DNA of 64,000 nucleotides from Candidatus Spongiihabitans sp. (GCF_965237845.1 NZ_OZ250154.1:115678-179677), one strand, 5' to 3'. Shown: positions 13,598 to 41,845, counted from the stretch's first letter. Numbers and translations are program-made. Notes: generated from the sequence alone by a model not told the origin.

Positions 13598-13599
13598 CG

Positions 13600-14355
13600 A
13601 TGCTGCTGATTCCGGCGATTGATATTAAAGACGGTAAATGCGTCCGCCTGCGGCAGGGCGACATGAACCAAACCACGGTATTTTCCGATGACCCGGTATC
13701 GGTCGCGCAACGATGGGTCAATGAAGGCGCCCGGCGGCTGCACATTGTTGATTTGGACGGCGCGATGAAAGGCGAACCGATTAATGCGGATATTGTGCAC
13801 CGCATTGCTGAAAACCACCCGCAATTGCCGATCCAGATTGGTGGCGGGATTCGCAATGAAGACACCGTGGAGGTTTATATTCAAGCCGGGGTGCGCTATG
13901 TCATTATTGGCACTCAGGCGATTAACCAGCCTCACCTGATCAGCGATTTGTGCACAGAATATCCTGCCCGCGTGATTGTTGGACTGGATGCCAGAGACGG
14001 CAAAATCGCTACCGAAGGCTGGTCGAAACTGTCCAAACACGATGTCATCGACATGGCCCGGCACTTTGATAAAACGGATGTGGCGGCAATCATTTATACC
14101 GATATCGCCAGGGATGGCATGATGCAGGGCGTTAATATTGATGCAACCGTGGCGTTGGCGCAGGCGGTGAATATTCCGGTGATTGCTTCCGGCGGCATTC
14201 AGAATATTGAAAATGTCAAGCAATTAGCTACGGCATCGGGCTCGGGAATCATCGGCGCAATCACCGGTCGGGCGATTTACGAAGGCGCGCTGGATTTTGC
14301 CGAGGGCCAAAAAGCCGCTGATGAAATTTTCGGCGAAGGTGGTTTTGGCGAATAA
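13600..14355 (+). CDS. hisA: ProFAR isomerase
   Basis: [17 protein letters not shown]...LHIVDLDGA...GGGIR signature. Confidence 0.93.
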
Positions 14356-14397
14356 TTTTTCAATGCCCGCTCCAGGCGCTCGGTCCGGGCCGCATTG

Positions 14398-15237
14398 ATG
14401 GCGCTCGCCAAAAGAATTATTCCCTGTTTGGATGTGGATGCCGGGCGTGTAGTGAAGGGCATACAATTTGTCGGTATCAAGGATGCGGGAGATCCGGTAG
14501 AAGTTGCCCGTCGGTACGATCAGCAAGGCGCTGACGAAATCACTTTTCTGGACATTACCGCTAGTTCTGACAATCGGGATACCCTGGTCAATGTAGTCAA
14601 GCAGGTTGCCAGCGAAGTCTTTATTCCTCTAACCGTCGGTGGCGGAATCCGCGAGTTGAGTGATATTCACAAAATGCTGAACGCTGGCGCCGACAAGGTT
14701 TCCATTAACACCACGGCGGTGAAAAACCCGGAATTCATCCGCCAAGCAAGCAAACATTTTGGCAATCAATGCATTGTCGTGGCCATCGACGCCAAGCAAG
14801 TGGCCCCTGAGGCCGATGCGGGCGCTAATAATCCTCGTTGGGAAATTTTTACCCATGGCGGCAGAAATGCCACTGGACTCGATGCCCTGGAGTGGTCGAA
14901 AAAAATGACGGAATACGGCGCCGGGGAGTTGTTGGTTACCAGTATGGATCGGGATGGCACCAAAAACGGATATGATATCGCGTTGATGCGCCGTATTACT
15001 GATAATGTATCGATTCCTGTCATTGCATCTGGTGGCGTGGGGACGCTGGAACATTTGGTATGCGGTATCATCGAGGGCGGCGCAGATGCGGTGCTGGCAG
15101 CAAGCATTTTTCACTATGGCGAATATACCGTCGAGCAGGCTAAACAATTTATGGCTGAGCGGGGTATTACGGTAAGACTCCGATCAATTCAAGACCACAA
15201 TAATTCTATTTTCTATAATGCAAACGATAGTAGATGA
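14398..15237 (+). CDS. hisF: imidazole glycerol phosphate synthase, cyclase subunit
   Basis: [11 protein letters not shown]...[11 protein letters not shown]...TVGGGIR...SGG.G motifs. Has a short C-terminal extension overlapping hisI. Confidence 0.93.
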
Positions 15238-15604
15238 AATAAAATGGAACGAAGCCGGACTGGTGCCCGCGATCGCTCAACAGCACGACACCGGCAAAGT
15301 GTTAATGGTGGCGTGGATGAATAGGCAGGCATTGCAAACCACGATTGAGGAAGGTCGCGCCGTGTATTACTCAAGATCGAGGAAAAAATTATGGCGCAAA
15401 GGCGAGGAGTCGGGACATATTCAGAAATTAAAGGAACTTCGCATTGATTGCGACGGCGATGTGGTATTAATGCAGGTTGAGCAAGTCGGCGGCATTGCCT
15501 GTCATACTGGCCGTCATGCCTGCTTTTACAAACGCTATGAAAACGGTCGATGGAATGAAGTGGAACCGATATTAAAAGACCAGGCTGAGATATATAAGAC
15601 CTAG
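15218..15604 (+). CDS. hisI: phosphoribosyl-AMP cyclohydrolase
   Basis: GLVPAIAQ...MVAWMN...YYSRSR..LW.KGE.SGH...DCDGD...CHTG motifs. 128 aa, so cyclohydrolase only. Confidence 0.9.
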
Positions 15605-15780
15605 CCCGGATATTTCATCAAGCCGGTGCGAGCGTACAAAATGCCGCTACGCAGGCCGGGTGTTTACCGCTAGAATCAGCGTAGCGACAAAGTTGATACT
15701 TGAATGTTGCTAAAAAACAGCCATACTTCAATGAAGGTAATCAATTCACTATAAACAGACAATCGACGAGGCGCAATATT

Positions 15781-16032
15781 ATGGGCATTGGTGGTATTAG
15801 TCCGGTTCAATTAATCATCATTCTGGTGATTGTATTATTGATTTTCGGCACAAAGAAACTGAGAAATTTGGGTGGCGATTTGGGTGGCGCTATAAAGGGA
15901 TTTAAAAAAGCGGTCAAAGAAGAAGGCGCCGCGGAGAAAATTGAAGAAGAGAGCGAAGCAGCCAGCGAAGAAATAAACGAACAAGAAGCGGTGGTTGCGG
16001 AAAAAGCGGAAATTGACAAGGAAAAACCCTGA
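15781..16032 (+). CDS. tatA: Sec-independent translocase TatA
   Basis: [35 protein letters not shown] is the canonical TatA/E. The internal ATG at 15781 is used. Confidence 0.9.
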
Positions 16033-16043
16033 TTTAACTTCCC

Positions 16044-16844
16044 ATGTTTGATGTTGGCTTTTGGGAGATGGCGTTTATTGGCGTCATCGCCCTTGTGGTC
16101 ATTGGGCCTGAGCGCCTGCCCGGTGTCGCGCGCAGTGTGGGTCTGTGGGTCGGCAAGGGCAGGCATATGCTTAACGAGGTTATGTCGGATGTTAAAAAGG
16201 AAATGAAAGAGTATGACGACGAGTATGGCATGAAGAAAGTCAAAACGTTAAGAGATGACCTGAAATCGGCCAGCACATCGGCCAGCAAGGAGTTAAAAGA
16301 CATTACCCAATCCGCAGCCGATTCTCTGGATCTGAAAGCGGTGGGGAATGAGTTTAAAAAATCGGTAGATGACGCATCCGATTCGGCGTCTGATTCGTTA
16401 AGGCAGGAAACCAGCAAAATAAACCCGGCAGTTAAGAGCAAGGCAGCCCCTGGTAAATCAATCGCCAGTAAAACAACAGCAAGGAAAAAGTCAATGACAA
16501 AGAAAAAACCCGCCAAGAAAAATTCCGCCGCGAGAAAATCTCCCGCGAAAAAGCCCGCGAAAAAGCTCGCGAAAAAAACTGCCGGCAATAAAGGTCGTCA
16601 AAAAGACAGCCGCGAAATGAAGTATTACATTTACGAAAATTGGGCGAACCAAAGTGCCACGATACATGTCGGCGCTTGCAGATTTTGCAATAACGGGCGT
16701 GGCCTCGCGGACGGATCCGACCCGAAACACGCCGCATGGCACGGGCCTTTCAACAGCCTCAAAGATGCCAGACACCGACAAAAATCCATGAAAGCGAAGG
16801 TGAATAAAAAGTGTGGACATTGCGTAAACCGCTCTTTGCTATGA
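16044..16844 (+). CDS. tatB: Sec-independent translocase TatB with a Lys-rich linker and an in-frame 75-aa four-Cys C-terminal extension
   Basis: MFDVGFWEMAFIGVIALVVIGPERLP is the canonical TatB N-terminus. The ORF continues without a stop through an AKKPAKK-type linker into MKYYIYENW...CRFCNNGRG...WHGPF...CGHC. Confidence 0.8.
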   Translation: MFDVGFWEMAFIGVIALVVIGPERLPGVARSVGLWVGKGRHMLNEVMSDVKKEMKEYDDEYGMKKVKTLRDDLKSASTSASKELKDITQSAADSLDLKAVGNEFKKSVDDASDSASDSLRQETSKINPAVKSKAAPGKSIASKTTARKKSMTKKKPAKKNSAARKSPAKKPAKKLAKKTAGNKGRQKDSREMKYYIYENWANQSATIHVGACRFCNNGRGLADGSDPKHAAWHGPFNSLKDARHRQKSMKAKVNKKCGHCVNRSLL

Positions 16845-16880
16845 TGATCCCCCGAGGCTAAACCCAATGCGCGAATCCCC

Positions 16881-17648
16881 ATGACCGCCGATTCGAACGC
16901 CGCCGAAGGCTCGCTGGTTTCCCATCTGGTCGAGTTGCGCGATCGGTTGCTTCGCGGCGTGTTTTCGGTTCTGGTGTTTTTCATTATTCTGGCGCCTTTC
17001 GCTAATACGCTCTATGAGGTGTTGGCAAGCCCGTTGATGTCGGCATTGCCTGAAGGCAACAGCATGATATCCACCGAGCCGCACGGCCCATTTTTTGTGC
17101 CCTTCAAATTTGCGTTTGCCTGCGCGTTCGCATTAGCGGTGCCTTATTTGTTGTATCAAATCTGGGCGTTTGTGGCGCCGGGACTATATAAACATGAACA
17201 ACGGCTGGTAATACCGCTATTGGTTTCCAGCAGCGGCTTGTTTTATCTGGGAATCATTTTTGCGTATTTTGTGGTATTTCCGCTGATATTTGAATTTTTT
17301 GCAAACACCGCCCCTGAAGGCGTGGCGGTAATGACTGACATCAATGCGTATCTCGGATTTGTAATAAAATTATTTTTTGCATTTGGTGTGGCCTTTGAAG
17401 TGCCCGTGGCAACCGTGTTAATGATTTATATGGGGGTAGCCACCGAGGCAGGCCTGGCAAAAAAACGACCGTATATCATCGTTGCAGCATTTGTGGTCGG
17501 TATGTTATTAACCCCGCCGGATATTTTTTCTCAAACGTTGTTGGCGCTGCCGGTATGGCTTTTATTTGAAATCGGTTTGATTTGCTCGCGGTTCTTGAAA
17601 AGCCGGGCCGTCAATGACCAAGCCAGCGATGAAGATAGCGATGATTAA
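16881..17648 (+). CDS. tatC: Sec-independent translocase TatC
   Basis: 255 aa, six TM segments, SHLVELRDRLL and LTPPD motifs. Confidence 0.93.
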   Translation: MTADSNAAEGSLVSHLVELRDRLLRGVFSVLVFFIILAPFANTLYEVLASPLMSALPEGNSMISTEPHGPFFVPFKFAFACAFALAVPYLLYQIWAFVAPGLYKHEQRLVIPLLVSSSGLFYLGIIFAYFVVFPLIFEFFANTAPEGVAVMTDINAYLGFVIKLFFAFGVAFEVPVATVLMIYMGVATEAGLAKKRPYIIVAAFVVGMLLTPPDIFSQTLLALPVWLLFEIGLICSRFLKSRAVNDQASDEDSDD

Positions 17649-17732
17649 TACGAATTACATCACACAAATTACAGATGCGCCCGGCCTTTGTGCCATATCC
17701 TTAGACGCCCTATTCGGGTTAGTCCGCAAGGC

Positions 17733-19565
17733 ATGAAATTACACCAAGCGGTTATCGCCATATTCTTGCTGTTGTGTGTTCCGGCTCATGCCAGCGAGCT
17801 TAAAAATCAACTGACGGATCACCCCGCACCCTATCTGGCTTTGCACGGCGATGATCCGGTCGCCTGGCAGGCATGGAATGAGGAATCTGTGCAATTAGCC
17901 AGACAACAAAACAAAATTCTTTATCTTTCGATAGGTTATTTTGCGTGCCACTGGTGCCACGTGATGCAGCAGGAAAGTTATAAAAACGAGAAAATCGCCG
18001 AGTTTCTGAATGAAAATTTTATTCCTGTAAAAATCGACCGCGAGCTTGAGCCGGCCCTGGACCGGCGGTTGATGGATTTCACCCAACGCATAATTGGCCG
18101 CGGAGGTTGGCCACTGAATGTGTTTGTAACGCCTACTGGGCATCCGATTTATTCGTTGTTGTATGCCCCGCCCGAGCAATTTTTGGAAACATTGAATCGC
18201 TTGCAAAGGGTTTGGCAAAACGATCGGCAGCGGGTTCTGGATTTGGTCAGTAACGAAGCAGTTGAAACATTCCAGATTTATGGTCCGAATCTGGAGCGCA
18301 GCAGATACCAGAATATTCTTGCTGAATCCGCCAGGATTGTTATGTTGCGAGCGGACCTAGACAAAGGCGGATTCGGCGATAAACAAAAATTTCCATCCGC
18401 GCCACAATTACAGTATCTGCTTAAACAGTATCAAATCAATCCACAGCCGGCGGCAAAAGCTTTTTTGACGCTAACCCTCGACGCTATGGCTGATCTCGGC
18501 CTGGTTGACCATTTAATTGGCGGCTTTTTTAGATACACGACGGATACTGATTGGAGCATACCGCATTTTGAAAAAATGTTGTATGACAATGCAAATCTCG
18601 CTTTGCTGTACTTGAATGCCGGAAAAGTGTTGGGTAGTGCAAAGTATGAATCCATTGGGCAACAAACATTAACGTACATGCAGAAGTATATGTGGCACCA
18701 ACACGGCGCATTGATATCTTCATTCTCTGCGGTTGACGACAATAACGTCGAAGGCGGCAGTTATTTATGGCAGCCAGCCGAAATCGCCGAAATACTTGAC
18801 CCTGAGCAAGCCAATCTTATATTTTCAATATGGGGTCTGGACCAAGAGAGTGAACTGCCCAGGGGTAACCATGTTCGATTGATGATGAGCCTGGGACAGT
18901 ACGCCAACAAAAACAATTTGAAATTGGATGAGGCTCAGCAACGCTATGAGCAGGCACGAACCAAATTGATCGCCGCCAGGCTAAAACGCTCACTGCCGAT
19001 GGATGATAAACTTCTGGCCGGCTGGAATGGTTTGGCCTTATCCGCTTTTGTCTCGGCCGCCGCGCAGTTTCCCGAATTGTCATATAACCAAACCGCTAAA
19101 GCGCTACGGGATTTTTTGGTCAATCAATTATGGGATGGTAAAGCGTTAGCCCGGTCAATGACCAAAGGAAGGTTGCTAGGCACCGCATCGCTGGAAGATT
19201 ATGCCTACGTGGCACGAGGCCTGTTTGATTGGGCATCGCTATCGAACAGCGATGGCGATTTCGAAGTTGCGCTGGCAATCACAAAACAAGGCTGGCAACG
19301 ATTTTACCGAAACAATGGTTGGTATCAGGGGGATGACACGTTGTTAGCCTCGGTGTCTGGCGAACCAATGCTTGCAGATACCGCCAACCCGGCGCCCTCT
19401 GCAGTATTAATTTCCACCAGCCTTGAATTGGCCAAAAAGTTTTCGGACGATGAATTAAAAGAAAAAGCATTATCCGCTTTGAACCGAAACGAAACATTAT
19501 TGATTCGCGCGCCGTTTTGGTATGTCAGTCAGCTTGAAGCGTTATCTTTGGCGCTTGAAAATTAA
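17733..19565 (+). CDS. secreted thioredoxin-domain protein (DUF255/YyaL-like, N-acylglucosamine-epimerase-like fold)
   Basis: Signal peptide MKLHQAVIAIFLLLCVPAHA, then WQAWNEE...YLSIGYFACHWCHVM...IPVKIDREE-like motifs typical of the YyaL family. Confidence 0.8.
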   Translation: MKLHQAVIAIFLLLCVPAHASELKNQLTDHPAPYLALHGDDPVAWQAWNEESVQLARQQNKILYLSIGYFACHWCHVMQQESYKNEKIAEFLNENFIPVKIDRELEPALDRRLMDFTQRIIGRGGWPLNVFVTPTGHPIYSLLYAPPEQFLETLNRLQRVWQNDRQRVLDLVSNEAVETFQIYGPNLERSRYQNILAESARIVMLRADLDKGGFGDKQKFPSAPQLQYLLKQYQINPQPAAKAFLTLTLDAMADLGLVDHLIGGFFRYTTDTDWSIPHFEKMLYDNANLALLYLNAGKVLGSAKYESIGQQTLTYMQKYMWHQHGALISSFSAVDDNNVEGGSYLWQPAEIAEILDPEQANLIFSIWGLDQESELPRGNHVRLMMSLGQYANKNNLKLDEAQQRYEQARTKLIAARLKRSLPMDDKLLAGWNGLALSAFVSAAAQFPELSYNQTAKALRDFLVNQLWDGKALARSMTKGRLLGTASLEDYAYVARGLFDWASLSNSDGDFEVALAITKQGWQRFYRNNGWYQGDDTLLASVSGEPMLADTANPAPSAVLISTSLELAKKFSDDELKEKALSALNRNETLLIRAPFWYVSQLEALSLALEN

Positions 19566-19643
19566 GGATGCTCGCACAGACAATACGCACAGACAATGAT
19601 TGGGGCGCATGACAATTCCCGGGTTAAAGCCCCCTTTCGATAA

Positions 19644-20351
19644 TCACATCGGCCGCCATGCCTGGTTGACAAAGCCAAACATCGGTTTGAAGTTGGTTTT
19701 ATAACTCATTTTTTTACAGCCCTCGATCCAGTATCCCAGGTATAACCAGTCCATTTGGATTTGACGGACGTACTCAATTTGTTTCATGATTGCAAATGTT
19801 CCCAGACTGCGTTTTGAAAAATCAGGATCGAAAAAAGTATAAACTGCCGACATGCCGTCATCCGGCAAGTCACAGACCGAAAGCCCGATTAATTTTCCCT
19901 TCAGCCGATATTCCATGAATACGGTTTCAATCAAAGATTTAACCACAAACTCGTGGTAGCGGTCTGAGTCGTTGTGGTCCATGGTATCTCCGCTGTGGCG
20001 CCACGATTGGTAACGACAATACAATTCAAAATGTTCCTGTTTGAAACTGGTGGGTACCATGGTGGTGTGGAGATCCTGATTTTTTTTGTAGCACCTGATT
20101 TGAGCACGATTGGGAAGATACGCATTGGCTGGAATTTTCACCGACACGCAGGCCTTGCAGTTTCGGCAATGCGGTCGGTAAATGGTTTTCCCGCTACGCC
20201 GAAACCCGGAGTTTAACAATACGCTAAACAGCGCATTATCTACTTTGTAATTGGGGTCCAGTAAAACCGTGGTTGCCGTTTCAGGTTCGATATAGGGACA
20301 GGCGTGGGGCGCGGAAAGATAAAGCTTCGGCGGGTTTAACTGAATGGTCAC
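19644..20351 (-). CDS. bpt: arginyl/aspartyl-glutamyl-tRNA--protein transferase (Bpt/Ate family)
   Basis: 235 aa. LYLSAPHACPYIEP...GFRRSG...YRPHCRNCKAC...LGYWI motifs. Confidence 0.85.
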   Translation of the reverse strand: MTIQLNPPKLYLSAPHACPYIEPETATTVLLDPNYKVDNALFSVLLNSGFRRSGKTIYRPHCRNCKACVSVKIPANAYLPNRAQIRCYKKNQDLHTTMVPTSFKQEHFELYCRYQSWRHSGDTMDHNDSDRYHEFVVKSLIETVFMEYRLKGKLIGLSVCDLPDDGMSAVYTFFDPDFSKRSLGTFAIMKQIEYVRQIQMDWLYLGYWIEGCKKMSYKTNFKPMFGFVNQAWRPM

Positions 20352-20787
20352 GGGTTATGTCACAGCGATTATTTACGGATTAAGCATGACATAAACCGGG
20401 TCATTTTCTGAGTGTCCGAAATATGACTTCTCCCACTCTGGTTCAGAAAAAGAAAATGCCGTCATAGCGAGCGCTGAACCTAATGCAAGTATCTATCCCA
20501 ATGATTCACGCGCAGAAAGGGCTGTTGCCTCTTTAAAATTATCTTCCGTTACCCTAAATTTGTTAATAATCAGTGAGTTCCGCACTCACGAGAAACATCG
20601 TTTTCATTAGTATGATTATCTTCCGGCAATTTCAGTTTTTGCACGAACGCTTGATGCATTTGTGTATGATTTTCTTTCATTTCTATCCTTTACCCAATAA
20701 TAACATCCACAATCCATAGATAAATTTGTTTTCTTTGGTACATTTGGATGACTAAAATATGTTGTGTACATATTAAGAAACTATACC

Positions 20788-20845
20788 TTCTAACGCCCGC
20801 ATAACCGGCCGCTTTTGGCAGTCCGCGTGTATGCTTTTGTTAGCT
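20788..20845. other. attC-like imperfect palindrome (site 1)
   Basis: tTCTAAC-GCCCGCATAACCGGCC...CCGCGTGTATGCTTTT-GTTAGCt. The terminal CTAAC/GTTAG are complementary, the inner arms pair imperfectly, and the left arm is near-identical to site 2. Confidence 0.45.
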
Positions 20846-20852
20846 ATTTTGC

Positions 20853-20879
20853 TGCTTATAGTATGTAGACTTATAAGCA
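20853..20879. promoter_or_regulatory. C-box-like operator upstream of the controller gene
   Basis: GCTTATAGT-atgta-GACTTATAAGC (outer palindrome TGCTTATA/TATAAGCA), 26-52 bp upstream of the ATG at 20905. Resembles the GACT-N3-AGTC tandem C-box layout. Confidence 0.55.
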
Positions 20880-20904
20880 TCATGATATTTATATTGTTTT
20901 CTAA

Positions 20905-21135
20905 ATGAGAAAAGCAAGCCAACTTATCACAAATACATTATCCAATAATATCAAAAAGCTTCGTGGTGATCTGAATTTATCACAAGAAGATCTTGCTGAT
21001 AAATGCGGACTCCACCGTACTTATGTTGGTGCGGTAGAACGAGGCGAACGGAATGTAACATTAAGTTCGTTAGAAACTATAGCTTCAGCTTTAAATGTAG
21101 ATGTTCCCACTTTATTAACCGATAAGTCAAAGTAG
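20905..21135 (+). CDS. R-M controller (C) protein, XRE-type HTH
   Basis: 76 aa. LRGDLNLSQEDLADKCGLHRTYVGAVERGERNVTLSSLETIA is the classic C-protein sequence pattern. Sits immediately upstream of the nuclease gene. Confidence 0.8.
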   Translation: MRKASQLITNTLSNNIKKLRGDLNLSQEDLADKCGLHRTYVGAVERGERNVTLSSLETIASALNVDVPTLLTDKSK

Positions 21136-21140
21136 TTTAT

Positions 21141-22241
21141 ATGGATGTAAGATTAAAGAAACCACCTAAAAGCAAAAGTCTTTTAACATCTTTGCCCGAT
21201 TTGGCAAAAAAACTTGAATCCCTAATAAATACTAAGTTTGAACTTACAGGAAAATCAAGAACAGATGGTTCAAATATTCGTAAATTAATAGCCGATAAAT
21301 TAATCAATTCAAACCCGCCACCATACGCAGAAAAAAATTCTTATGAGGTAGTCCCACCCAAAGGTGTACCTAAAATTCTTTTAGAATATGTCGATACATA
21401 TATCGTAACGACGGGTACATCGTATAACCTTCAAGTTTGGAATAGAAATCCTTCATCAGAATCCGTTCAAATCCAATATTCAAGCGGTGAAACACTTCAA
21501 TCAGGTGAAGTTCGCTTTGTATTAGTAAAAATTGATCCAGATAACCACAAGGTCATTGCTATCGCTGTACTAACACCTGAATATATCGTAAATAAATTTG
21601 GAGTGTTTGGCAAACCAACAGTAAAAAATCAACTGGTTATCTCCTCTTCATTGCGGCGGTTTGTATTAGCAAAACCAAATGGAGTATTGTTTTATGACGA
21701 TATGGTTGGGGATAAAGAAAACATTAAAAACCTATCACTTTTTAGTATTCACGACCAGCCAACAACTGGATCATTATTACCACTGTCAATAATCAAGGAA
21801 ATTATTATTAATAAAATTATTGGGTGTAATATTGCGCCAGCAGCTACCAAAAATAGAGGGCAAATGCTTGAAGAGATATTTGCCGGTGCATTAGGTTACA
21901 GTATTGGCGATAATGAATTGCTTTCTGGTGGATACCCTGATCTTCGCAACCAAGCACTAGAAGTAAAAATTCAAGATTCTCCAACAGTTGATTTAGGAAA
22001 GTTTAGTCCTGAATTTGAAATTACTGCTCCAGATTGCGGTAACTTTACAACTCGAAATATGCGTTATTTTATAGCTCTTACCAATCCTGAAACTAACATA
22101 GTTGAAGGTGCAATATTATGCCAAGGAAATAAGCTTGGTTTACATTTCACCTACGTTCCAGACGAAAGCTATAAATGCCAGAGATCAATACCAATGAGTT
22201 TTTTTGAAGGCATAAAAGGACTATCGGTATTTAATCCGTAA
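21141..22241 (+). CDS. putative type II restriction endonuclease
   Basis: 366 aa, coupled 5 bp after the C gene and convergent with the methylase. Candidate PD-(D/E)xK motif in GGYPDLRNQALEVKIQ. No family assignment is possible by eye. Confidence 0.6.
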   Translation: MDVRLKKPPKSKSLLTSLPDLAKKLESLINTKFELTGKSRTDGSNIRKLIADKLINSNPPPYAEKNSYEVVPPKGVPKILLEYVDTYIVTTGTSYNLQVWNRNPSSESVQIQYSSGETLQSGEVRFVLVKIDPDNHKVIAIAVLTPEYIVNKFGVFGKPTVKNQLVISSSLRRFVLAKPNGVLFYDDMVGDKENIKNLSLFSIHDQPTTGSLLPLSIIKEIIINKIIGCNIAPAATKNRGQMLEEIFAGALGYSIGDNELLSGGYPDLRNQALEVKIQDSPTVDLGKFSPEFEITAPDCGNFTTRNMRYFIALTNPETNIVEGAILCQGNKLGLHFTYVPDESYKCQRSIPMSFFEGIKGLSVFNP

Positions 22242-22251
22242 TTGTTGATAC

Positions 22252-23994
22252 CTACGAGACATTAAAAACCGACCAAACGATTTTATCAATTTTATCTTCG
22301 ATGTTTATTTGGTTATTTTCATTTTTTTCCTTGTAGCATTCTTTAGCCAAAGCAATCAATGTTTTTGATTCTGCAAGATTTGGGTTTGGTATAGGGAACT
22401 GTTCAACATACTGGGTAATAAACCGCCTTCTATTTGAGTAGAGTTTATTGTGAAATTTTATATCATAAAATTTTTCTATAAAACGTGAATTAGCTACTGC
22501 TAAAACAAGCCACATAATACTCTCTGGCATTTGTTCATTATCACGTAATAACCAATAGCAGTCTCCATTTACAATGCTTCCTTCTTTATCCATCCAGAAT
22601 GTTGGACGTTCACTTATGTCACGAAAGACAACTTTTGGTTGCTCCCAAAGTGATGGGTTCTGCGGAACCCAAATTTCAAACCATTCTCTATTAGCTTTAA
22701 TAACATACTTCCTACTACTAAGTTGATCTTTGTTTTCTTCAAGATACCTTTTAGACAGAGGATATTCATTAATGTTAAATGTGTGCCTTTTTCCATTAAT
22801 GATAGTATGAGTGTAAAGAATTACCTTTTTCTCTTTTTCATTGCTCCTGAACCGACTAGCGATATGATGTGTGGTTAATGGGCGTAATAATTCAGGCTCG
22901 TAACCAATTTCTTTTTTCCAATTTGACCTAATAAATACATTATCAGCAGTTGTTTTTACACCAACACGAACTTTCCCTATATCTTTAAACAGACACCATG
23001 TATTAGATGCCACTTTATCCAACCATTGCTCATACTCTACGTCTTGAAGTCGCCACAAATCAGCCGGATTGGAATCAAATGTTAGGTGTCCATTTTTAAC
23101 ATAGAAATTACCTTGTTTTGAAGAAACAATACCATCATATTTTAGGGCTTGAATTTGGCTTTCAACGAAAGGAAGGCTTTTTGAATAACTTTCATTTTCA
23201 GCCATGTAAATAGATGAAAAAGGGATATTAAAGTCCCTTTCTTTGTTGTGTGTTGAAAGAATGACTACTGCTGGCAAAACAGCAGCCTCAAAAACTTTAG
23301 TATCACCGAAATCCCAAATCCCTTTAATTGAATATTGGTTATGGATAATTTCTCTAAATTTCCCCGCACCTTTTGTTGTCAGGAAACGATTAGAAACGAT
23401 CACGCCAGCGACTCCATCAGGTTTTAACACCGATTTCATCGCAACCAAGAATGCTTGGTAAATATCAACTCTTCCCTTTAGCCCGAAATTCTTACTTAAT
23501 AGTTGAGATTGTTCTGCACCTAAAACTTGAGTTCGTATATACGGAGGGTTTGCTATTAATAAGTCAAAATCTGGTATATCACTTGAATAAAATAAATCTT
23601 GCGAGTCAGACAGCCCACTCTTTTCTATACATATCTGAAGGAAGTCTTTATTTTGCAAAATTGGAGTAAGATTAGGGTAAGTTTCTTTTAATCTTTTCCT
23701 GGTTATTTCAATTGACGCGGGGTTTGTATCAAATCCATAAACCTCAATGTTATGGAACGATTTGGCTTTTAATGTTTTTATTAGACTTATCAGTAATTCA
23801 CCATCCCCTACAGCGGGATCAACCACCTTTACGGATTTTTTCAAGTTAGCATTGAAAATAATATTTTCTGAAATAAAATCAGAAAAAATCTCTGGAGTAT
23901 AATGTGCACCTTCTTTTTTTCTTGATTCTACATGGCTATATCGTTCAGCTGTTTGCATTGGACTCCCCATATTGATGCTACTTATAGTATTCAT
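22252..23994 (-). CDS. N6-adenine DNA methyltransferase (gamma class, Eco57I/TaqI-like)
   Basis: 580 aa. SAM motif VVDPAVGDGELL precedes the catalytic LLIANPPYIR, followed by a large C-terminal target-recognition region. Confidence 0.9.
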   Translation of the reverse strand: MNTISSINMGSPMQTAERYSHVESRKKEGAHYTPEIFSDFISENIIFNANLKKSVKVVDPAVGDGELLISLIKTLKAKSFHNIEVYGFDTNPASIEITRKRLKETYPNLTPILQNKDFLQICIEKSGLSDSQDLFYSSDIPDFDLLIANPPYIRTQVLGAEQSQLLSKNFGLKGRVDIYQAFLVAMKSVLKPDGVAGVIVSNRFLTTKGAGKFREIIHNQYSIKGIWDFGDTKVFEAAVLPAVVILSTHNKERDFNIPFSSIYMAENESYSKSLPFVESQIQALKYDGIVSSKQGNFYVKNGHLTFDSNPADLWRLQDVEYEQWLDKVASNTWCLFKDIGKVRVGVKTTADNVFIRSNWKKEIGYEPELLRPLTTHHIASRFRSNEKEKKVILYTHTIINGKRHTFNINEYPLSKRYLEENKDQLSSRKYVIKANREWFEIWVPQNPSLWEQPKVVFRDISERPTFWMDKEGSIVNGDCYWLLRDNEQMPESIMWLVLAVANSRFIEKFYDIKFHNKLYSNRRRFITQYVEQFPIPNPNLAESKTLIALAKECYKEKNENNQINIEDKIDKIVWSVFNVS

Positions 23995-24038
23995 TATTTA
24001 GGGTGAAGTCAATAGTTGAGATATAGTTTATTTGAGAC

Positions 24039-24113
24039 AGCTAACGCCTGCATAATCGGCGTAGCTTTGCTGCGTCCGGCGCTGAAGGCGCGTAGTTCAT
24101 GCGCTTGTTAGAC
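24039..24113. other. attC-like imperfect palindrome (site 2)
   Basis: aGCTAAC-GCCTGCATAATCGGCG...CGCGTAGTTCATGCGCTT-GTTAGAC. On the minus strand it starts GTCTAAC (RYYYAAC), and that heptamer holds the TAA stop of the 125-aa ORF. Confidence 0.5.
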
Positions 24114-24485
24114 GCCATGCGTATTCATGTCCTTTGCCGCTTCCAAAGCCAGCAACATCCAGTATTTCTGTTGGGAAATGGGAATCAGCACCCAACTCCT
24201 GGATGGATTCCCCCTTTCTTTTGGGTTCCAAGTCTCCGCGCCGGCAATCGAATACGTCTGACTTAACTGGCCTTCCCCAAGTTTAAACGACATGTCGATT
24301 TCCGAAAATGTTGCAAACATCTTCCGACCTAGCATGAGTTGACGTCGACACCAGCGTGAGGAGACGGAGAAGTTCGAATACTCACCCTCAATTCGCTCGA
24401 TGATCAATTCAAGGCTTGCTTCTGCACTGTCGGTCATTATCCCTATGCTTGGTCGCCTAACGCTTGAGTCATGTGTTTTTTTCAT
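24108..24485 (-). CDS. hypothetical 125-aa protein (weak TfoX-N/YjbR-like pattern)
   Basis: ORF with higher GC than its neighbours. ...LGRKMFATFSEIDMSFKLGEG... loosely resembles the TfoX_N/YjbR fold pattern. Its stop codon lies inside attC-like site 2. Confidence 0.45.
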   Translation of the reverse strand: MKKTHDSSVRRPSIGIMTDSAEASLELIIERIEGEYSNFSVSSRWCRRQLMLGRKMFATFSEIDMSFKLGEGQLSQTYSIAGAETWNPKERGNPSRSWVLIPISQQKYWMLLALEAAKDMNTHGV

Positions 24486-24552: not shown

Positions 24553-25098
24553 CTATTCTCTTTGTAAGCTTGATAAGTCAACGACGGCACCATGCTCAAT
24601 AAATACATCGTAGAACTTATCATAATCCCTACCCCAGTAACTCATTGCACATGCCATGGGAGCGCCTTTGCCTGCACCGGAACCATTTTCAAGAAATTTT
24701 AGTCTTGTGTCATAGAGAAAACAAACGGCTCTCGCTTGCCCGAAAACACTTTGCTTCCAATGACCTGTATTTGTCGCTACCGGAACTAAAGCCAATATTT
24801 CCGAACTATATTTTTGGTGAGTTAAAGCACACTTTGCTAACCAATTTTTTATTGTTGTCCCTCTTTCTCTGTCAGCACCATATGGTGGATTCATATAGAC
24901 GGTCGGATAGTTCCAATCTTCTCTAAGTCCATCATTTTGTGGAAGCGTAAATTCTATCTCTGCATGCACTATCGAATATTTATTTGAGCAAGGGTCTAAT
25001 GCAATAGCACCACCAAAAAAACGTTTAATGGCTTTTACATATTTAAGAGGTGTTCCCCAGCTTTGACTTTGAGAATTTACTGTTCTTCCTGCACTCAT
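24553..25098 (-). CDS. phage-type DNA N6-adenine methyltransferase (Dam, Pfam05869-like)
   Basis: 181 aa. WGTPLKYV...ALDPCSN...DGL..DW...VYMNPPYG...W..K matches the small phage Dam family layout. ATGA overlap with the upstream ORF. Confidence 0.8.
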   Translation of the reverse strand: MSAGRTVNSQSQSWGTPLKYVKAIKRFFGGAIALDPCSNKYSIVHAEIEFTLPQNDGLREDWNYPTVYMNPPYGADRERGTTIKNWLAKCALTHQKYSSEILALVPVATNTGHWKQSVFGQARAVCFLYDTRLKFLENGSGAGKGAPMACAMSYWGRDYDKFYDVFIEHGAVVDLSSLQRE

Positions 25099-26231
25099 AG
25101 TATTTCTTTCCAGTTTTTAGAACGTAACTCTACGAGTTCGCTCTTTAGTTCAGTAATTGTTTTTCCTTCTGGTGCGATGGTGTTAAACCAGCCTTCAATT
25201 TCATTTAATTTGTCCGAAAAGTATTTGAGCAAAACTGTGTCTGCTTCAAAATCCATCTTGACCTTTGTAAAAACGTTTCGCTTTTTATCAGCAGTATAGC
25301 TACTTTTAAAAGCCTCTTGTACCTTGATATATTCCTGTGTTGGATTGAGCAATAACTCATCAATGAATTGAGCCAGTCCGTTATCCGTTAAAAAAATTAA
25401 CCAATCGTATGATTGGGCTAAAACCTTCAATTCTTTGTTATGATTTTCGGCAGTGAACCAATTTCCATGATTACTGACTACTCCAACGGTTAAAATGAAT
25501 TTTTGTAGCAAGTCAGAGTCATCAGAGTAAATTATTTCCTCCATCAATTCAACATAAGGCTTTATGTACGGTTGGTTGTCAGAACGATATATTATCCCAT
25601 ATTTTTCTCCAGTGTCAGTCCTAATTTTTTGTAAGGAGGACGTGGTTCTTGCAACGTACGCTCCCTGTTTTGCTTTTTCTATTGTCTGAGGGCCTTTCTT
25701 TGTTCCTTCTTCAACTCCGACCCTTTTGCACTCAAATATTGCATAAGGTTTTTACATTTGCTCAAAGACTAATAATTCATGCTCTTGTTGTCCAATAGTC
25801 TTAAAACTGGTCAATAAAAATGAGTCTTTTGACTCACCAATGGTACAAGCGTTACGAAGAACATTATGTGTATCAAGAAGATTGTTATTCTTTTTGTCAA
25901 ATTTTGTAATATTGTTTTTTTCTCCCAATGCTTTTAGGATTTTGGCCGCTGTAATTGAATTCCCATCATTGGGAATAGCAACTCCATACTCTTTGATTAT
26001 GGGATGCAGGGAGTATTCAACATTATGTGATATATCTTCATTCCCATATTCAACAAGTCCTCTTTCTATTGAAGTCGAGTTATTAAAACCCCAAGTTTTT
26101 AGAAGATAATAGGTTATAATTTCAACCATTGTTCCAAGCGCTCTGCCTGCTGCTTTTTTCTTATCTTTCGTGTAATGAAAGACTTTTTCGCCAAGAGCAT
26201 TCTGTAATTTATCTACCGATTCATATGCCAT
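25095..26231 (-). pseudogene. putative PD-(D/E)xK restriction endonuclease interrupted by a single in-frame TAA (25752-25754)
   Basis: The 159-aa ORF (26231-25752), the 68 codons in between, and the 150-aa ORF (25547-25095) are all in one frame. The read-through sequence is ...LLVFEQM*KPYAIFECKRVGVEEG..., which contains an E-x-K nuclease motif. Confidence 0.65.
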
Positions 26232-26396
26232 TTGTTTTTATAACTTCCCAATTTTTGTGTTCATTATCAGTTGTCAATTTTTCCTGCACATAACGGCGCG
26301 AAGCGCCGTGTGAACAATTAGCATCAGGCACATTTGCTCTGATAAGTCGATATTACCCGGTAGATCGGGCAAACCGTCATAACATTAAGCATTTTG

Positions 26397-27077
26397 TTAT
26401 TGTGGTTCTACCGGAATATTTTTCCAGCTTCCCGGTTTGCCGACATGAGTCAACGCACAGCCTAATCGCTCAAGGAATTCTGTACGAGGAATTTCTACGG
26501 CGCCCAGGTTCAATAAATGAGGCGACGTTATTTGGCAATCGATAAGCTGAAAATTCCAGGTTGTTAAATGGGAGATTAAAAAGTTCAATGCCGCTTTGGA
26601 GGCATCGCTGGTCTGACTAAACATACTCTCGCCAAAAAACATGCCGCTCAACGCAATTCCGTACAAACCGCCAACCAATTGGTCATCTTTCCAGGTTTCT
26701 ATGGAATGAGCATATCCCAAGTGATGCAGATCAATATAGGCATCCTTCATATCTTCGGTGATCCAGGTGCCAGCGCTGTTCGTACGCGGTGCGGCACAGT
26801 TATTGATGACTTCCTCAAAGGTTTGGTCGAGAGAAAAAACAAAGCGCTGTTTTTTGATTGATTTTTTCAGGCTTCGTTGTGGTTTGTATTGCGCAGGGAA
26901 TAAAACGCATCTAGGGTCGGGTGACCACCACAGGATCGGCTGGCCAGCGTGATACCAGGGGAAGATACCTTTTCGGTAGGCGGTCATTAGACGCTGCGGA
27001 CTTAAATCTCCGCCAAGTGCCAGCAAACCGTCGTCTGTAGCGTATTTAACATCAGGAAAATCTTCTACGGTATTCAT
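26397..27077 (-). CDS. aat: leucyl/phenylalanyl-tRNA--protein transferase
   Basis: LLALGGDLSPQRLMTAYRKGIFPWY...PILWWSPDPR...GGLYG...FFGESMF motifs. ATG at 27077 is preferred. Confidence 0.9.
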   Translation of the reverse strand: MNTVEDFPDVKYATDDGLLALGGDLSPQRLMTAYRKGIFPWYHAGQPILWWSPDPRCVLFPAQYKPQRSLKKSIKKQRFVFSLDQTFEEVINNCAAPRTNSAGTWITEDMKDAYIDLHHLGYAHSIETWKDDQLVGGLYGIALSGMFFGESMFSQTSDASKAALNFLISHLTTWNFQLIDCQITSPHLLNLGAVEIPRTEFLERLGCALTHVGKPGSWKNIPVEPQ

Positions 27078-27195
27078 GTTGCTGGTATTTATAGGGCCAA
27101 AGACATATAGTGCCAAAGGCAAAACGCAATTTCAGTTGTGCGCCTTTCGATTATGTGTGTCAATATACTATTTAGCTGTTATAAAATCCATCAAT

Positions 27196-28401
27196 GCGAA
27201 GCGCCTGATCAATTAAGAAATAACTACGATGGGGATGAGTGCCGGAAGTGAGGCTTCAGCCTCGCCAATCCATTGCAGATGGCAGGACTAAAGTCCCGCT
27301 TCCGATAAGCAATAACTACCGAGGTGCGAAGCGCCTGATCAATTAAGAAATAACTACGATGGGGATGAGTGCCGGAAGTGAGGCTTCAGCCTCGCCAATC
27401 CATTGCAGATGGCAGGACTAAAGTCCCGCTTCCGATAAGCAATAACTACCGAGGTGCGAAGCGCCTGATCAATTAAGAAATAACTACGATGGGGATGAGT
27501 GCCGGAAGTGAGGCTTCAGCCTCGCCAATCCATTGCAGATGGCAGGACTAAAGTCCCGCTTCCGATAAGAAATAACTACCGAGGTGCGAAGCGCCGGATC
27601 AACTAAGAAATAATTACGATGGGGATGAGTGCCGGAAGTGAGGCTTCAGCCTCGCCAATCCATTGCAGATGGCAGGACTAAAGTCCCGCTTCCGATAAGA
27701 AATAACTACCGAGGTGCGAAGCGCCTGATCAATTAAGAAATAACTACGATGGGGATGAGTGCCGGAAGTGAGGCTTCAGCCTCGCCAATCCATTGCAGAT
27801 GGCAGGACTAAAGTCCCGCTTCCGATAAGCAATAACTACCGAGGTGCGAAGCGCCGGATCAACTAAGAAATAATTACGATGGGGATGAGTGCCGGAAGTG
27901 AGGCTTCAGCCTCGCCAATCCATTGCAGATGGCAGGACTAAAGTCCCGCTTCCGATAAGCAATAACTACCGAGGTGCGAAGCGCCTAATCAATTAAGAAA
28001 TAACTACGATGGGGATGAGTGCCGGAAGTGAGGCTTCAGCCTCGCCAATCCATTGCAGATGGCAGGACTAAAGTCCCGCTTCCGATAAGAAATAATTACC
28101 GAGGTGCGAAGCGCCTGATCAATTAAGAAATAACTACGATGGGGATGAGTGCCGGAAGTGAGGCTTCAGCCTCGCCAATCCATTGCGGATGGCAGGACTA
28201 AAGTCCCGCTTCCGATAAGCAATAACTACCGAGGTGCGAAGCGCCTGATCAATTAAGAAATAACTACGATGGGGATGAGTGCCGGAAGTGAGGCTTCAGC
28301 CTCGCCAATCCATTGCGGATGGCAGGACTAAAGTCCCGCTTCCGATAAGAAATAATTACCGAGGTGCAAAGCGCCCGATCAACTAAGAAATAATTACCGA
28401 G
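27196..28401. repeat. tandem array of 9 full and 1 partial copies of a 130-bp non-coding unit
   Basis: Unit starts fall at 27196 + n*130 (n = 0-9), with near-identical copies. No ORF of 60 aa or more on either strand. Abuts the tsaD GTG at 28402. Confidence 0.97.
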
Positions 28402-30460: not shown

Positions 30461-30942
30461 CTCATGTTGTTCTGGGCCTCGGCAGTAATATCAATCGGGA
30501 AAAAAATATTCGCTTCGCGGTTAAGCAAATTGGTGATCGGTATGGTGAAATTGAGATTTCACCGATCTATGAAACCGCCGCGATCGGCTTTGACGGGCCG
30601 GCATTTTTTAATTTAGTGCTTGGCTTTAAGACCTCATCCTCGCTTTTGGATATACGGGATAAATTACGCAATATTGAAACTGCGGCAGGGCGCATTCGCG
30701 GGCGACAATCATTCGACAACCGGCACCTGGATATTGATGTGGAATTATTCGGTGATAAAAATTTGCGTCCTGACGGGCTTAACATTCCTAGCGATGAGAT
30801 TGAGAAATATGCCTACGTTTTAAAACCATTATCAGATTTGTACCCAACTCTGGCACATCCGGTCAGCGGCGTGAAATTCGAGCAAATGTGGCTGGATTTT
30901 GATAGCACTCAAAAGCTTGGGGTGGCGAATTTTTCGCTTTAG
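30457..30942 (+). CDS. folK: 2-amino-4-hydroxy-6-hydroxymethyldihydropteridine pyrophosphokinase
   Basis: VLGLGSNI...SPIYET...F.N......RHLDIDV..F motifs, 161 aa. Confidence 0.9.
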   Translation: MTHVVLGLGSNINREKNIRFAVKQIGDRYGEIEISPIYETAAIGFDGPAFFNLVLGFKTSSSLLDIRDKLRNIETAAGRIRGRQSFDNRHLDIDVELFGDKNLRPDGLNIPSDEIEKYAYVLKPLSDLYPTLAHPVSGVKFEQMWLDFDSTQKLGVANFSL

Positions 30943-31009
30943 TCATTCGCTTTGGTCAGATGAATTCATATCGGTCCCCATTTTACCCTGTATAAGCTCA
31001 GAAACATTC

Positions 31010-31580
31010 ACTCGACTGGATGCCCGCGGCCGCCACAAACCGACCCCCCCCGCAAACCCAAAACCCGCAAGCCCAAAGGCTTCAAGCATCCACCGCTTGA
31101 AGCATCCACCGCTTGAAGTGTTCGCCTGCGATACCGTGGTGCGCCTGCGCGAGGGACTGCGCCGCTACCTGTTCACCTTCATCGACCCTCACTCCCGCTT
31201 CGCTATCGCCTTTGCCGCCGCCCAGTCCAGCCAGCAGGCTGCCATCGCCCTTGATGCGCTGTGCCAACTGCTGCCAAAACCGCCGCGCTTCAGGATTGAA
31301 GACAACGGCTCGGAGTTCATATGACGCTTCCAGCAACGCCCCGATGCCCACGGCATGACCCACTGGCGACCTTATCCCCGCTTGCCCAGAACGACCGCCC
31401 ATGCCGAGCGCTTCAACCGCACCATCCAAGAGCAGTTGGTCGATTATCACGAGGATCAACTATTCCATGACTTGCCCGGCTTTAACCGCAAACTGGCCGC
31501 CTGGCTACTCGACTGCAACACCGTCCTGCCCCATCATAGCCTCTCGGCTTGCAATCTCCCGCAACTTCCTCATCCATAAT
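31010..31580 (+). pseudogene. remnant of a DDE (rve/integrase-core) transposase, N-terminally truncated and frame-shifted
   Basis: Fragments ...FACDTVVRL..YLFTFIDPHSRFAIAF...EDNGSEFI* and, in another frame, ...THWRPYPR.P.TTAHAERFNRTIQEQLVDYHED...LPHHSL. GC is visibly much higher than the flanks. Contains a 16-bp tandem duplication at 31084-31115. Confidence 0.75.
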
Positions 31581-38377: not shown

Positions 38378-38440
38378 CACCGACCGGGAGAGAACACGTA
38401 AAATCAAGCGCGAATTATATCAACAATTATTGCTAAAAAC

Positions 38441-41831: not shown

Positions 41832-41845
41832 GAGAAATCTCTTTT

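What the first reader, a model, noticed from the sequence alone, without database searches (positions are those of the whole stretch)
20788..24113. Two related attC-like sites bracket the R-M module, suggesting integron-type gene cassettes without an integrase (CALIN-like)
**What the sequence shows.**
- Site 1 (20788-20845) and site 2 (24039-24113) share the arm CTAACGCC[C/T]GCATAA[C/T]CGGC at one end and ATGC..TTGTTAG at the other.
- Each is an imperfect palindrome with bulged bases, bounded by complementary CTAAC/GTTAG heptamer cores. This matches the RYYYAAC...GTTRRRY layout of integron attC sites. Site 2 reads GTCTAAC...GTTAGCT on the minus strand.
- The TAA stop of the 125-aa ORF (24108-24485) sits inside the GTCTAAC core, a hallmark of cassette ORFs.
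- The 3.2-kb segment between the sites is exactly the C-R-M module.
- No intI gene is in the window.

**Interpretation.** A complete R-M system mobilised as an integron-type cassette outside an integron would be noteworthy.
Basis: partly seen in the sequence, partly recalled or inferred. Interest (0 to 1): 0.65.

Follow-up and report, generated by a model that had tools for sequence, protein, structure and literature searches.

The report
Restriction-modification gene cassette between attC sites
Two genuine integron-type recombination sites (attC) bracket a complete restriction-modification system that is a mobile 3.25-kb gene cassette, sitting in a small integrase-less cassette array in a sponge-symbiont chromosome; this is a well-documented example of a kind of element that is already known.

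Summary
Site 1 (20790-20843) and site 2 (24041-24111) have the attC layout, read on the minus strand.

- **Independent model.** I built a covariance model from 11 genuine class 1 integron attC sites. Its two best hits in the whole window are these two sites (E about 0.1-0.4). It also finds four sites (E 4e-9 to 0.03) in the same locus of a sister genome.
- **Mobile unit.** The 3,251 bp between the G|TT crossover points (20794-24044) carry a control (C) protein, a restriction enzyme and a BseCI-like methyltransferase.
- **Missing elsewhere.** The sister genome (92% identical flank) has a single hybrid site and no R-M module.
- **Other contexts.** A different gammaproteobacterium and other sponge metagenomes hold the cassette in other contexts. 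Homology ends at the same R' box.
- **Location.** The array fills the aat-bpt gap, which is only 14-310 nt in 46 of 80 other bacterial genomes.
[quoted passage not shown] The rest of the genome could not be searched.

R-M cassettes in integrons and CALINs are already published. This is a new member of a known kind.

The parts
24041..24111 (-). attC site 2. It is the attC of the upstream cassette (the 125-aa ORF). Top strand: GTCTAAC-AAGC-GCAT(G)AAC...GATTATGC-AGGC-G|TTAGCT.
   Evidence: Canonical-attC model R1 gives 15.6 bits, E 0.12, the best hit in the window. The orthologous site in the sister genome scores 18-20 bits. The ORF stop codon lies in R''.
20790..20843 (-). attC site 1. It is the R-M cassette's own attC. 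Top strand: AGCTAAC-AAAA-GCATA(C)AC(G)CGG...CCGGTTATGC-GGGC-G|TTAGAA.
   Evidence: R1 gives 13.7 bits, E 0.36, the second-best hit in the window. The fold shows an R stem, a 4x4 internal loop and an L stem with two bulged bases on one arm.
20794..24044 (-). The R-M gene cassette, 3,251 bp, from TTAGCT... to the final G of site 1.
   Evidence: It is absent as a unit from L005/L002/L004. It is present at 85% identity over 20812-24047 in L088, in another genomic context. Run X6 breaks at 24047 and run X9 at 20796.
22252..23994 (-). N6-adenine DNA methyltransferase, 580 aa, in cassette orientation.
   Evidence: Pfam Eco57I, N6_Mtase and TaqI_C. PADLOC MTase_II at 1e-208. M.BseCI structure 7qw5 at E 5e-134.
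21141..22241 (+). Type II restriction endonuclease candidate, 366 aa, opposite to the cassette orientation.
   Evidence: PADLOC REase_II PDLC03565 at 7e-17. No Pfam, PDB or PHROG match.
20905..21135 (+). Control (C) protein, HTH_3, 76 aa.
   Evidence: Pfam HTH_3 at 9e-16. PADLOC Control_protein at 1e-21.
20855..20895 (+). Candidate C-box palindrome CTTATAGTATGTAGACTTATAAG and a promoter-like site for the C-R operon. A second CTTATAGTAT lies at 23981-23990, in front of M.
   Evidence: It is conserved in L088 and L089. Its function is inferred only.
24108..24485 (-). ORF of 125 aa with no family match; it more likely starts at the ATG at 24437. It is the cassette whose attC is site 2.
   Evidence: In L002 it also occurs as a single-gene cassette bounded by two attC sites.
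24457..24468 (-). Remnant of an attC 3' end (top strand TCAAGCG|TTAGG) between the Dam-like gene and the 125-aa ORF. A similar remnant lies at 20645-20654.
   Evidence: It aligns with the intact L002 site GAATTCAAGCGTTAG. It is a breakpoint in runs X5 and X9. Low confidence.
24553..26231 (-). The proximal part of the array: ORFs of 159 aa and 150 aa plus a Dam-like orphan methyltransferase (181 aa). No intact attC lies between them.
   Evidence: Pfam Dam at 2e-15, PADLOC oMTase, phrog_111. R1 finds no site here. The segment is absent in runs X5 and X6.
26313..26319 (-). The aat-proximal junction of the array (top strand AATTG|TT). The first cassette differs between genomes from this point on.
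   Evidence: The window and L002 diverge here. Contig breaks occur at 26313 in X1 (minor form), X3, X7, X9 and X15.
19644..20351 (-). bpt (arginyl/aspartyl-tRNA protein transferase), the housekeeping flank.
   Evidence: Pfam ATE_C and ATE_N.
26397..27122 (-). aat (leucyl/phenylalanyl-tRNA protein transferase), the housekeeping flank.
   Evidence: Pfam Leu_Phe_trans at 4e-75. It lies next to bpt (gap 14-310 nt) in 46 of 80 other genomes.

Best explanation
Sites 1 and 2 are integron attC recombination sites whose top strand is the window's minus strand.

**The cassette.**
- The 3,251-bp segment 20794-24044 is one gene cassette.
- It starts at the TT of G|TTAGCT inside site 2's R' box and ends with its own attC (site 1).
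- It carries a self-regulated Type II R-M system: a BseCI-like N6-adenine methyltransferase, a restriction endonuclease and a C protein.
- The system has its own promoter-like sites, so it should not need an integron Pc promoter (inferred).

**The array.**
- The cassette lies in a short cassette array that was built into the aat-bpt intergenic spacer of a gammaproteobacterial sponge symbiont close to Ca. Spongiihabitans thiooxidans.
- No integrase lies nearby, so the array is a CALIN.

**How it moves (inferred).**
- An integron integrase, acting in trans or since lost, moved the cassette in or out by attC x attC recombination.
- The substrate would be the folded bottom strand, which is the window's plus strand and carries the bulged bases on its 3' arm.

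**What is shown and what is inferred.**
- Shown: the site architecture, the model match, the cassette-level polymorphism and the absence of intI in 64 kb.
- Inferred: catalysis by IntI, the specificity and activity of the R-M system, and its roles in defence and in stabilising the array.
For: **1. Independent model.** R1 was built from 11 attC sites taken from real class 1 arrays.
- Its top two hits in 128 kb of window strands are sites 2 and 1. Both are on the minus strand and both match the full model.
- In sister-genome locus L002 it finds four minus-strand sites at 45, 36, 31 and 18 bits.

**2. Layout.**
- The order is R'' (6-7 of 7 matches to RYYYAAC), a 4-nt spacer, L'' with extra bases, a variable centre, L', a 4-nt spacer, then R' (6 of 7 matches to GTTRRRY).
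- This matches aadA1, arr-3 and dfrA5.

**3. Covariation.** It was counted over 38 model hits.
- 7 of 9 L-box pairs show compensatory changes.
- 89% of cells are paired against 28-44% when the partner is slid.
- The covariation score is 0.39 against 0.12 in shuffles.

**4. Empty site.** L005, whose flank is 92% identical, and also L002 and L004, have site 1's left flank and arm joined to site 2's centre and the 125-aa ORF. No R-M module is present.

**5. Same cassette elsewhere.**
- L088 shares 85% identity only over 20812-24047 and has different neighbours.
- Run X6 keeps bpt, site 1 and the R-M module but has another attC beyond 24047.
- Run X9 breaks at 20796.

**6. Wider family.** The 19-nt arm occurs in attC arrays in metagenomes. 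42 R1 hits fall in 54 loci, often several on one strand of a contig.

**7. Insertion into a housekeeping spacer.**
- The aat-bpt gap is 14-310 nt in 46 of 80 other genomes and 6,045 nt here.
- GC in the array is 34-44% against about 50% outside it.

**8. No tyrosine recombinase** in the window.
Against: - **Marginal scores.** R1 E-values for the two window sites are only 0.12 and 0.36, and the model's calibration is rough. The real IntegronFinder model was not run.
- **Folding.** Energies are no better than shuffles.
- **Bulged bases.** They are C/G in site 1 and C in site 2 on the bottom strand, not the textbook G and T.
- **The empty site.** Its arm carries site 1's alleles (C, C) where site 2 has T, T. 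That single event cannot be pinned to G|TT, and a short-homology deletion between the 20-nt arms is not excluded.
- **Non-canonical breakpoints.** Some variants break just 5' of TCAAGCGTT, or at 26293.
- **No integrase link.** No integrase was found next to any array that carries this attC type.
- **Size.** At 3.25 kb the cassette exceeds the roughly 2-kb maximum quoted for cassettes in 2016.
Confidence: 0.85

Rival explanations
1. The array is not truly orphan. An integron integrase is encoded elsewhere in the same genome: a split sedentary integron, or one on another replicon. It still shuffles these cassettes in trans. By position the locus would still be called a CALIN, but it would be functionally part of an active integron system.
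For: - Cassette content at this locus differs between close relatives and apparently within one sample. In run X1 word depth is 3,866 over aat against 772-1,570 over the array, with alternative contigs breaking at 26313.
- About half of CALINs lie in genomes that encode IntI (Cury 2016).
Against: - No intI lies in 64 kb or in any fetched related locus.
- The only recombinase found near a related array is IS91-associated.
- The window's genome could not be searched.
Confidence: 0.4
2. The sites are attC-like relics. The R-M segment's presence or absence arose by RecA-independent short-homology recombination between the two 20-nt direct repeats, or by homologous exchange of the whole island between strains. 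No integrase was involved.
For: - The empty site in L005/L002 carries site 1's alleles across the whole shared arm. This fits a crossover at the inner end of the repeat.
- Other deletions in the array use non-canonical breakpoints.
Against: - Site 1 and site 2 differ in length and in their centres (54 against 71 nt). This is what an incoming cassette bringing its own attC predicts; a duplication does not predict it.
- L088, X6 and X9 place the same cassette ends next to unrelated sequence at the R' box, and no 20-nt repeat is available there.
Confidence: 0.07
3. The sites are a species-specific REP-type repeat or transcription terminators that happen to flank the R-M genes.
For: They are GC-rich imperfect palindromes in intergenic positions just after ORFs.
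Against: - There are only two copies in 64 kb.
- They have no T-run, and the terminator scan does not call them.
- The same arm occurs in multi-site arrays in unrelated phyla and metagenomes.
- A model built from clinical integron attC sites finds them.
Confidence: 0.03

Closest known systems
Integron gene cassettes that encode restriction-modification systems: the XbaI R-M cassette in a Xanthomonas integron, and Type II/IV R-M in sedentary chromosomal integrons and CALINs (Ghaly 2023, PMC10661359; Darracq 2024, bioRxiv 10.1101/2024.07.02.601686)
   Same: - A complete Type II R-M system sits inside one attC-bounded cassette.
- Its role would be defence or addiction.
   Different: - The host is a sponge-symbiont gammaproteobacterium.
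- The cassette has three genes and 3.25 kb, and includes a C regulator.
- The C-R operon is inverted relative to the cassette.
- Darracq et al. report that defence systems in integrons never exceed two components. I infer, but did not check, that the C gene would not count as a component.
[quoted passage not shown] 2016, PMC4889954)
   Same: - Two or more attC sites lie on one strand less than 4 kb apart.
- No intI and no intI pseudogene lies within 10 kb.
   Different: - The calls here rest on a surrogate covariance model, not on IntegronFinder itself.
- The array is small and partly decayed, with remnant R' boxes.
Cassette insertion at genomic attG sites, and SALINs (Loot et al., bioRxiv 10.1101/2022.09.11.507474)
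   Same: - The array starts at a plain G|TT (GWT) in an ordinary intergenic spacer just downstream of aat.
- Different first cassettes sit at that point in different genomes.
   Different: - Here several cassettes have accumulated at one spot.
- The origin through attG is inferred and was not shown.
Class 1 integron attC sites (aadA1, aadA2, aadB, arr-3, dfrA5 and others) and Vibrio cholerae repeats
   Same: - The layout is R''-spacer-L''...L'-spacer-R', with the extra base in L''.
- The 3' end TTATGCGGGCGTTAG resembles the VCR end TTAGGCGGGCGTTA; the VCR sequence is from memory.
   Different: - The L-box sequence differs (GCATAAC/GTTATGC).
- Site 2 has a branched centre.
- The identity of the bulged bases differs.
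Mobile R-M units inserted with a long target duplication (Furuta, Kobayashi and colleagues; from memory)
   Same: An R-M module is flanked by direct repeats and is polymorphic between strains.
   Different: The two flanking sites are not copies of one target: 54 against 71 nt, with different centres. They are attC-model positive.

Membership tests
Integron attC site | Inverted core sites R'' (RYYYAAC) and R' (GTTRRRY) at the two ends | tested here: met
   - Site 2 top strand: GTCTAAC (7 of 7) and GTTAGCT (6 of 7).
- Site 1 top strand: AGCTAAC (6 of 7) and GTTAGAA (6 of 7).
Integron attC site | L''/L' boxes separated from the R boxes by short unpaired spacers, with extrahelical base(s) on the L'' arm that give the site its polarity | tested here: met
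   - The spacers are 4 nt on each side.
- L'' is GCAT(G)AAC in site 2 and GCATA(C)AC(G)CGG in site 1, each paired with its L'.
- The bulges are on the top-strand 5' arm, as in aadA1, arr-3 and dfrA5.
- The base identity differs from the textbook G/T.
Integron attC site | Match to an attC covariance model | tested here: met
   - R1 is a surrogate model from 11 class 1 attC sites.
- The two sites are hits 1 and 2 of the window, at E 0.12 and 0.36. These values are marginal but below the E = 1 cut-off that I recall IntegronFinder using (from memory).
- Sister-locus sites reach E 4e-9.
- The IntegronFinder model itself was not available.
Integron attC site | Conserved structure with variable sequence (covariation in the L box) | tested here: met
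   - 7 of 9 L-box pairs show changes on both sides.
- 94 cells changed on both sides, against 43 in shuffles and 10-29 when slid.
- The alignment was fitted to the model, so the counts lean its way.
Integron attC site | Sits at a cassette boundary, and recombination occurs at G|TT of R' | tested here: met
   - The cassette is absent from L005, L002 and L004.
- Homology stops at CTAACGC (24047 or 20796) in L088, X6 and X9.
- The exact crossover inside the 20-nt arm is unresolved for the L005 event.
Integron attC site | Recombined by an integron integrase as folded single-stranded DNA | not testable with these tools
   This needs a recombination assay.
CALIN (Cury 2016) | At least two attC sites on the same strand less than 4 kb apart | tested here: met
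   3,197 nt lie between the sites, and both are on the minus strand.
CALIN (Cury 2016) | No integron integrase (or pseudogene) clustered with the sites | tested here: met
   - tblastn with a verified IntI1 query gave nothing in the window.
- Pfam scans of flanking ORFs show his, tat, tsaD, plsY and fol genes.
Complete integron | intI with an adjacent attI and Pc at the head of the array | tested here: not met
   The head of the array abuts the 3' end of aat. No intI lies in 64 kb.
Type II R-M system with C protein | Adjacent methyltransferase, endonuclease and HTH control protein | tested here: met
   - M matches M.BseCI at 5e-134.
- PADLOC gives MTase_II, REase_II and Control_protein.
- Activity and the ATCGAT specificity were not tested.
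- ATCGAT is not depleted in the window: 26 found against 21.5 expected.
REP / dispersed intergenic repeat | Many copies scattered through the intergenic regions of one genome | tested here: not met
   There are two copies in 64 kb. The same arm occurs in arrays of unrelated taxa.

The most novel reading that the evidence does not exclude
The locus is a natural example of a cassette array founded at an ordinary genomic GTT (an attG-type site) in the aat-bpt spacer. It is still exchanging cassettes, including a three-gene R-M system, among co-resident strains of a sponge symbiont whose genome has no integrase of its own. Cassette flux would then depend on integrases supplied by other community members or on incoming DNA.
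Probability: 0.2. Interest if true: 0.55.

Novelty: new member of a known kind. Interest (0 to 1): 0.35.

Why it matters
- It adds a clearly delimited, multi-gene Type II R-M cassette to the evidence that integron cassettes and CALINs carry phage-defence genes. Occupied, empty and relocated states are all observed in nature.
- It extends that picture to uncultured sponge symbionts.
- It shows that a cassette larger than the usual size range can still behave as a unit.
- The variable first position next to aat offers a natural test case for how integrase-less arrays arise and turn over.

Tried and rejected
- **Rfam.** At gathering thresholds it finds only a tRNA; no attC family matched.
- **Simple scans.** My first energy and stem filters were too rigid and missed the window's own sites, so I dropped them in favour of a covariance model.
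- **Folding z-scores** are uninformative.
- **Integrase next to related arrays.**
  - The L142 recombinase is frameshifted and is followed by an IS91-type transposase (read from the translation).
  - L137 has an IntI C-terminal fragment at its contig end, but the motif there lies in an amidase-like coding sequence.
- **Source genome.** The exact R protein is not on record. The window's genome is not in genome contigs, since it did not appear. A whole-genome intI search was therefore impossible.
- **IntegronFinder's own alignment.** The supplementary files are not held.
- **Phage origin.** There are no hits in viral contigs for the arm or for R.
- **Site avoidance.** ATCGAT shows none.
- **One genome-contig scan was left unused.** A degenerate IntI search cannot be limited to one genome.
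Full report
**Observation**

Site 1 is CTAAC...GTTAG at 20790-20843 (54 nt) and site 2 is at 24041-24111 (71 nt).

- The shared arm CTAACGCCYGCATAAYCGGC occurs only at these two places in the window. About 0.02 matches are expected by chance.
- The bare CTAAC-N-GTTAG frame is not significant on its own.
- Between the sites lie three genes:
  - a control protein at 20905-21135;
  - a Type II endonuclease candidate at 21141-22241;
  - a 580-aa N6-adenine methyltransferase at 22252-23994 on the minus strand, closely related to M.BseCI (E 5e-134).
- The TAA stop of the 125-aa ORF lies inside GTCTAAC on the minus strand.

**Context**

- The region from 20.4 to 26.4 kb has 34-44% GC, against about 50% around it.
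- It sits between bpt (19644-20351) and aat (26397-27122).
- In 46 of 80 other bacterial genomes fetched with Aat, aat and bpt are 14-310 nt apart. Here the gap is 6,045 nt.
- Flanking genes are housekeeping: the his operon, tatABC, tsaD, plsY, folB and folK.
- tblastn with IntI1 finds no tyrosine recombinase anywhere in the window. The query was verified as 100% identical to annotated intI1.

**Are the sites attC?**

I took 11 attC sites from real class 1 integron arrays on plasmids: aadA1, aadA2, aadA5, aadB, aac(6')-Ib, aac(6')-29a, blaVIM-2, arr-3, dfrA5, dfrA12 and gcuF. I aligned them and built covariance model R1 with the R-box and L-box pairs.

- *Window.* With filters off, the two best hits in the window are site 2 (15.6 bits, E 0.12) and site 1 (13.7 bits, E 0.36). 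Both are on the minus strand and cover the whole model. The next hits have E above 5.
- *Layout.* It matches the canonical one: R'', a 4-nt spacer, L'' with extra base(s), a variable centre, L', a 4-nt spacer, then R'.
- *Polarity.* The bulged bases sit on the top-strand 5' arm, so the window's plus strand is the bottom strand.
- *Folding.* Energy is not better than shuffles, so stability alone says nothing.
- *Covariation.* Across 38 distinct R1 hits in the window and related loci, 7 of 9 L-box pairs show compensatory changes. Pairing is 89%, against 28-44% when the partners are slid. The alignment is model-fitted, so the counts lean towards the structure.

**Relatives**

An exact scan of public genomes for the 20-nt arm gave seven loci.

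- L005 and L002 come from Ca. Spongiihabitans thiooxidans LS_SOB. L005 is 92% identical to window 12906-20809, and L002 carries aat and tsaD.
- In these loci, and in L004, there is one hybrid site. It joins site 1's left flank and arm to site 2's centre, right arm and the 125-aa ORF, with no R-M module.
- L002 holds a cassette array between aat and bpt. R1 finds four minus-strand attC hits there, at 45.3, 36, 31 and 18 bits, each just downstream of a minus-strand ORF.
- A metagenome scan for the arm gave 54 loci. R1 finds 42 hits in them, often several per contig on one strand, which is the pattern of arrays.
- The arm is therefore a widespread attC type and not a lineage-specific repeat.

**The cassette moves as a unit**

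- *Boundaries.* With the minus strand as top strand, the crossover G|TT falls between 24045 and 24044 and between 20794 and 20793. This gives a 3,251-bp cassette that brings its own attC (site 1). That explains why the two sites differ in length and in their centres.
- *L088.* The R protein has a relative in L088, a different gammaproteobacterial MAG. DNA identity of 85% covers only 20812-24047, the neighbouring genes differ, and the attC there is truncated.
- *Run X6.* Its contigs keep bpt, site 1 and the R-M module, but a different attC end follows 24047.
- *Run X9.* It breaks at 20796, the same register in site 1.
- *Run X15.* It reproduces the empty site.
- *Head of the array.* Many runs break at 26313, the aat-proximal AATTG|TT.
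- *Source sample.* Word depth is 3,866 over aat but 772-1,570 over the array. This suggests strain-level differences in array content.

**Caveats**

- The R1 E-values for the two window sites are marginal, and the IntegronFinder model was not available.
- The empty site's arm carries site 1's alleles at both polymorphic positions. That event cannot be placed at G|TT, and a short-homology deletion is not excluded.
- Some variants break just 5' of TCAAGCGTT remnants (24457-24468 and 20645-20654) or at 26293. These are not canonical crossover points.
- No array of this attC type was found next to an integron integrase.
- The window's genome is not in the searchable collections. Whether it encodes IntI elsewhere is unknown.

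**Mechanism**

- *Shown:* two attC sites, a cassette array in a housekeeping spacer, a mobile R-M cassette, and no nearby integrase.
- *Inferred:*
  - An integron integrase inserted or excised the cassette by attC x attC recombination of the folded bottom strand.
  - The array began at a genomic GTT, as described for attG sites.
  - The R-M system runs from its own promoters. A repeated CTTATAGTAT motif in front of both C and M is a candidate C-box.
  - The system may both restrict phage and stabilise the array.

**Comparison and novelty**

- CALINs are defined and common.
- R-M systems, including XbaI, are known in integron cassettes. Type II and IV R-M occur in sedentary integrons and CALINs.
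- This case adds a new host lineage and a cassette that is larger than usual, has three genes and is partly inverted. It also comes with natural occupied, empty and relocated states.
- It is a new member of a known kind, of moderate interest.

Noticed in passing
window 27195-28397: A 130-bp tandem repeat with 9.3 copies, 97% identical, lies between aat and tsaD. Each unit has two GC-rich hairpins. It is also present, with lower similarity, in L002. No Rfam match. Function unknown.
   Followed up: partly
window 38047-38381: A second tandem repeat: 110 bp, 3 copies, 97% identical.
   Followed up: no
window 40189-42420: A second low-GC island (32-43% GC). It has an N6_N4 DNA methyltransferase (40189-41049), two small ORFs with no family match and a truncated methyltransferase fragment (42124-42420). 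It may be another R-M module. The attC model finds nothing there.
   Followed up: partly
window 30899-31324: An ORF with a partial rve (transposase/integrase core) domain. It looks like an IS remnant, about 3.8 kb from the array.
   Followed up: no
window 22102-22203 (run X5): In a related sponge-associated population the restriction gene carries a 102-nt in-frame deletion flanked by a 7-nt repeat, while M is kept. This suggests decay of the endonuclease.
   Followed up: no
window 24457-24468 and 20645-20654: These are remnants that resemble attC 3' ends (top strand TCAAGCGTTAG/TCAAGCGTTCG). Natural variants (X5, X9) break just 5' of them, which is not the canonical G|TT. Unexplained.
   Followed up: partly
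L002 1-5000: - The sister genome's array holds a second copy of the 125-aa ORF cassette.
- It also has what looks like an IS30-like transposase fragment (judged from the translated sequence, not family-tested) replacing part of the 159-aa ORF region, and further transposase-like ORFs at about 2790-3405.
- Both copies of the 125-aa cassette are followed by the same 25 nt (TTAGAAGGTATAGTTTCTTAATATG). Simple G|TT exchange does not explain this.
   Followed up: partly
L003 (whole 7.6-kb contig): A contig binned as a Nitrosopumilaceae archaeon is essentially one attC array. It has at least seven model hits on one strand, three of them with the same arm as the window's sites. It is either an archaeal cassette array or a mis-binned contig.
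   Followed up: no
L004 6790-7723: The end of a 360-kb contig assigned to Nitrospina sp. LS_NOB carries the symbiont-type bpt, the empty attC site and the start of the 125-aa ORF. This is probably a chimeric contig end.
   Followed up: no
L142 9908-11489: A frameshifted tyrosine recombinase, followed by what reads as an IS91-type transposase in the translation, lies next to an attC array with six model hits. It is not an integron integrase.
   Followed up: partly
L088 4490-4640: Two direct copies of a roughly 60-nt element (ATTTATCGTTGA..TAAGAATAGCAGGA..ATCGAGTC.GACCC) abut the truncated attC of the R-M cassette in the other gammaproteobacterium.
   Followed up: no
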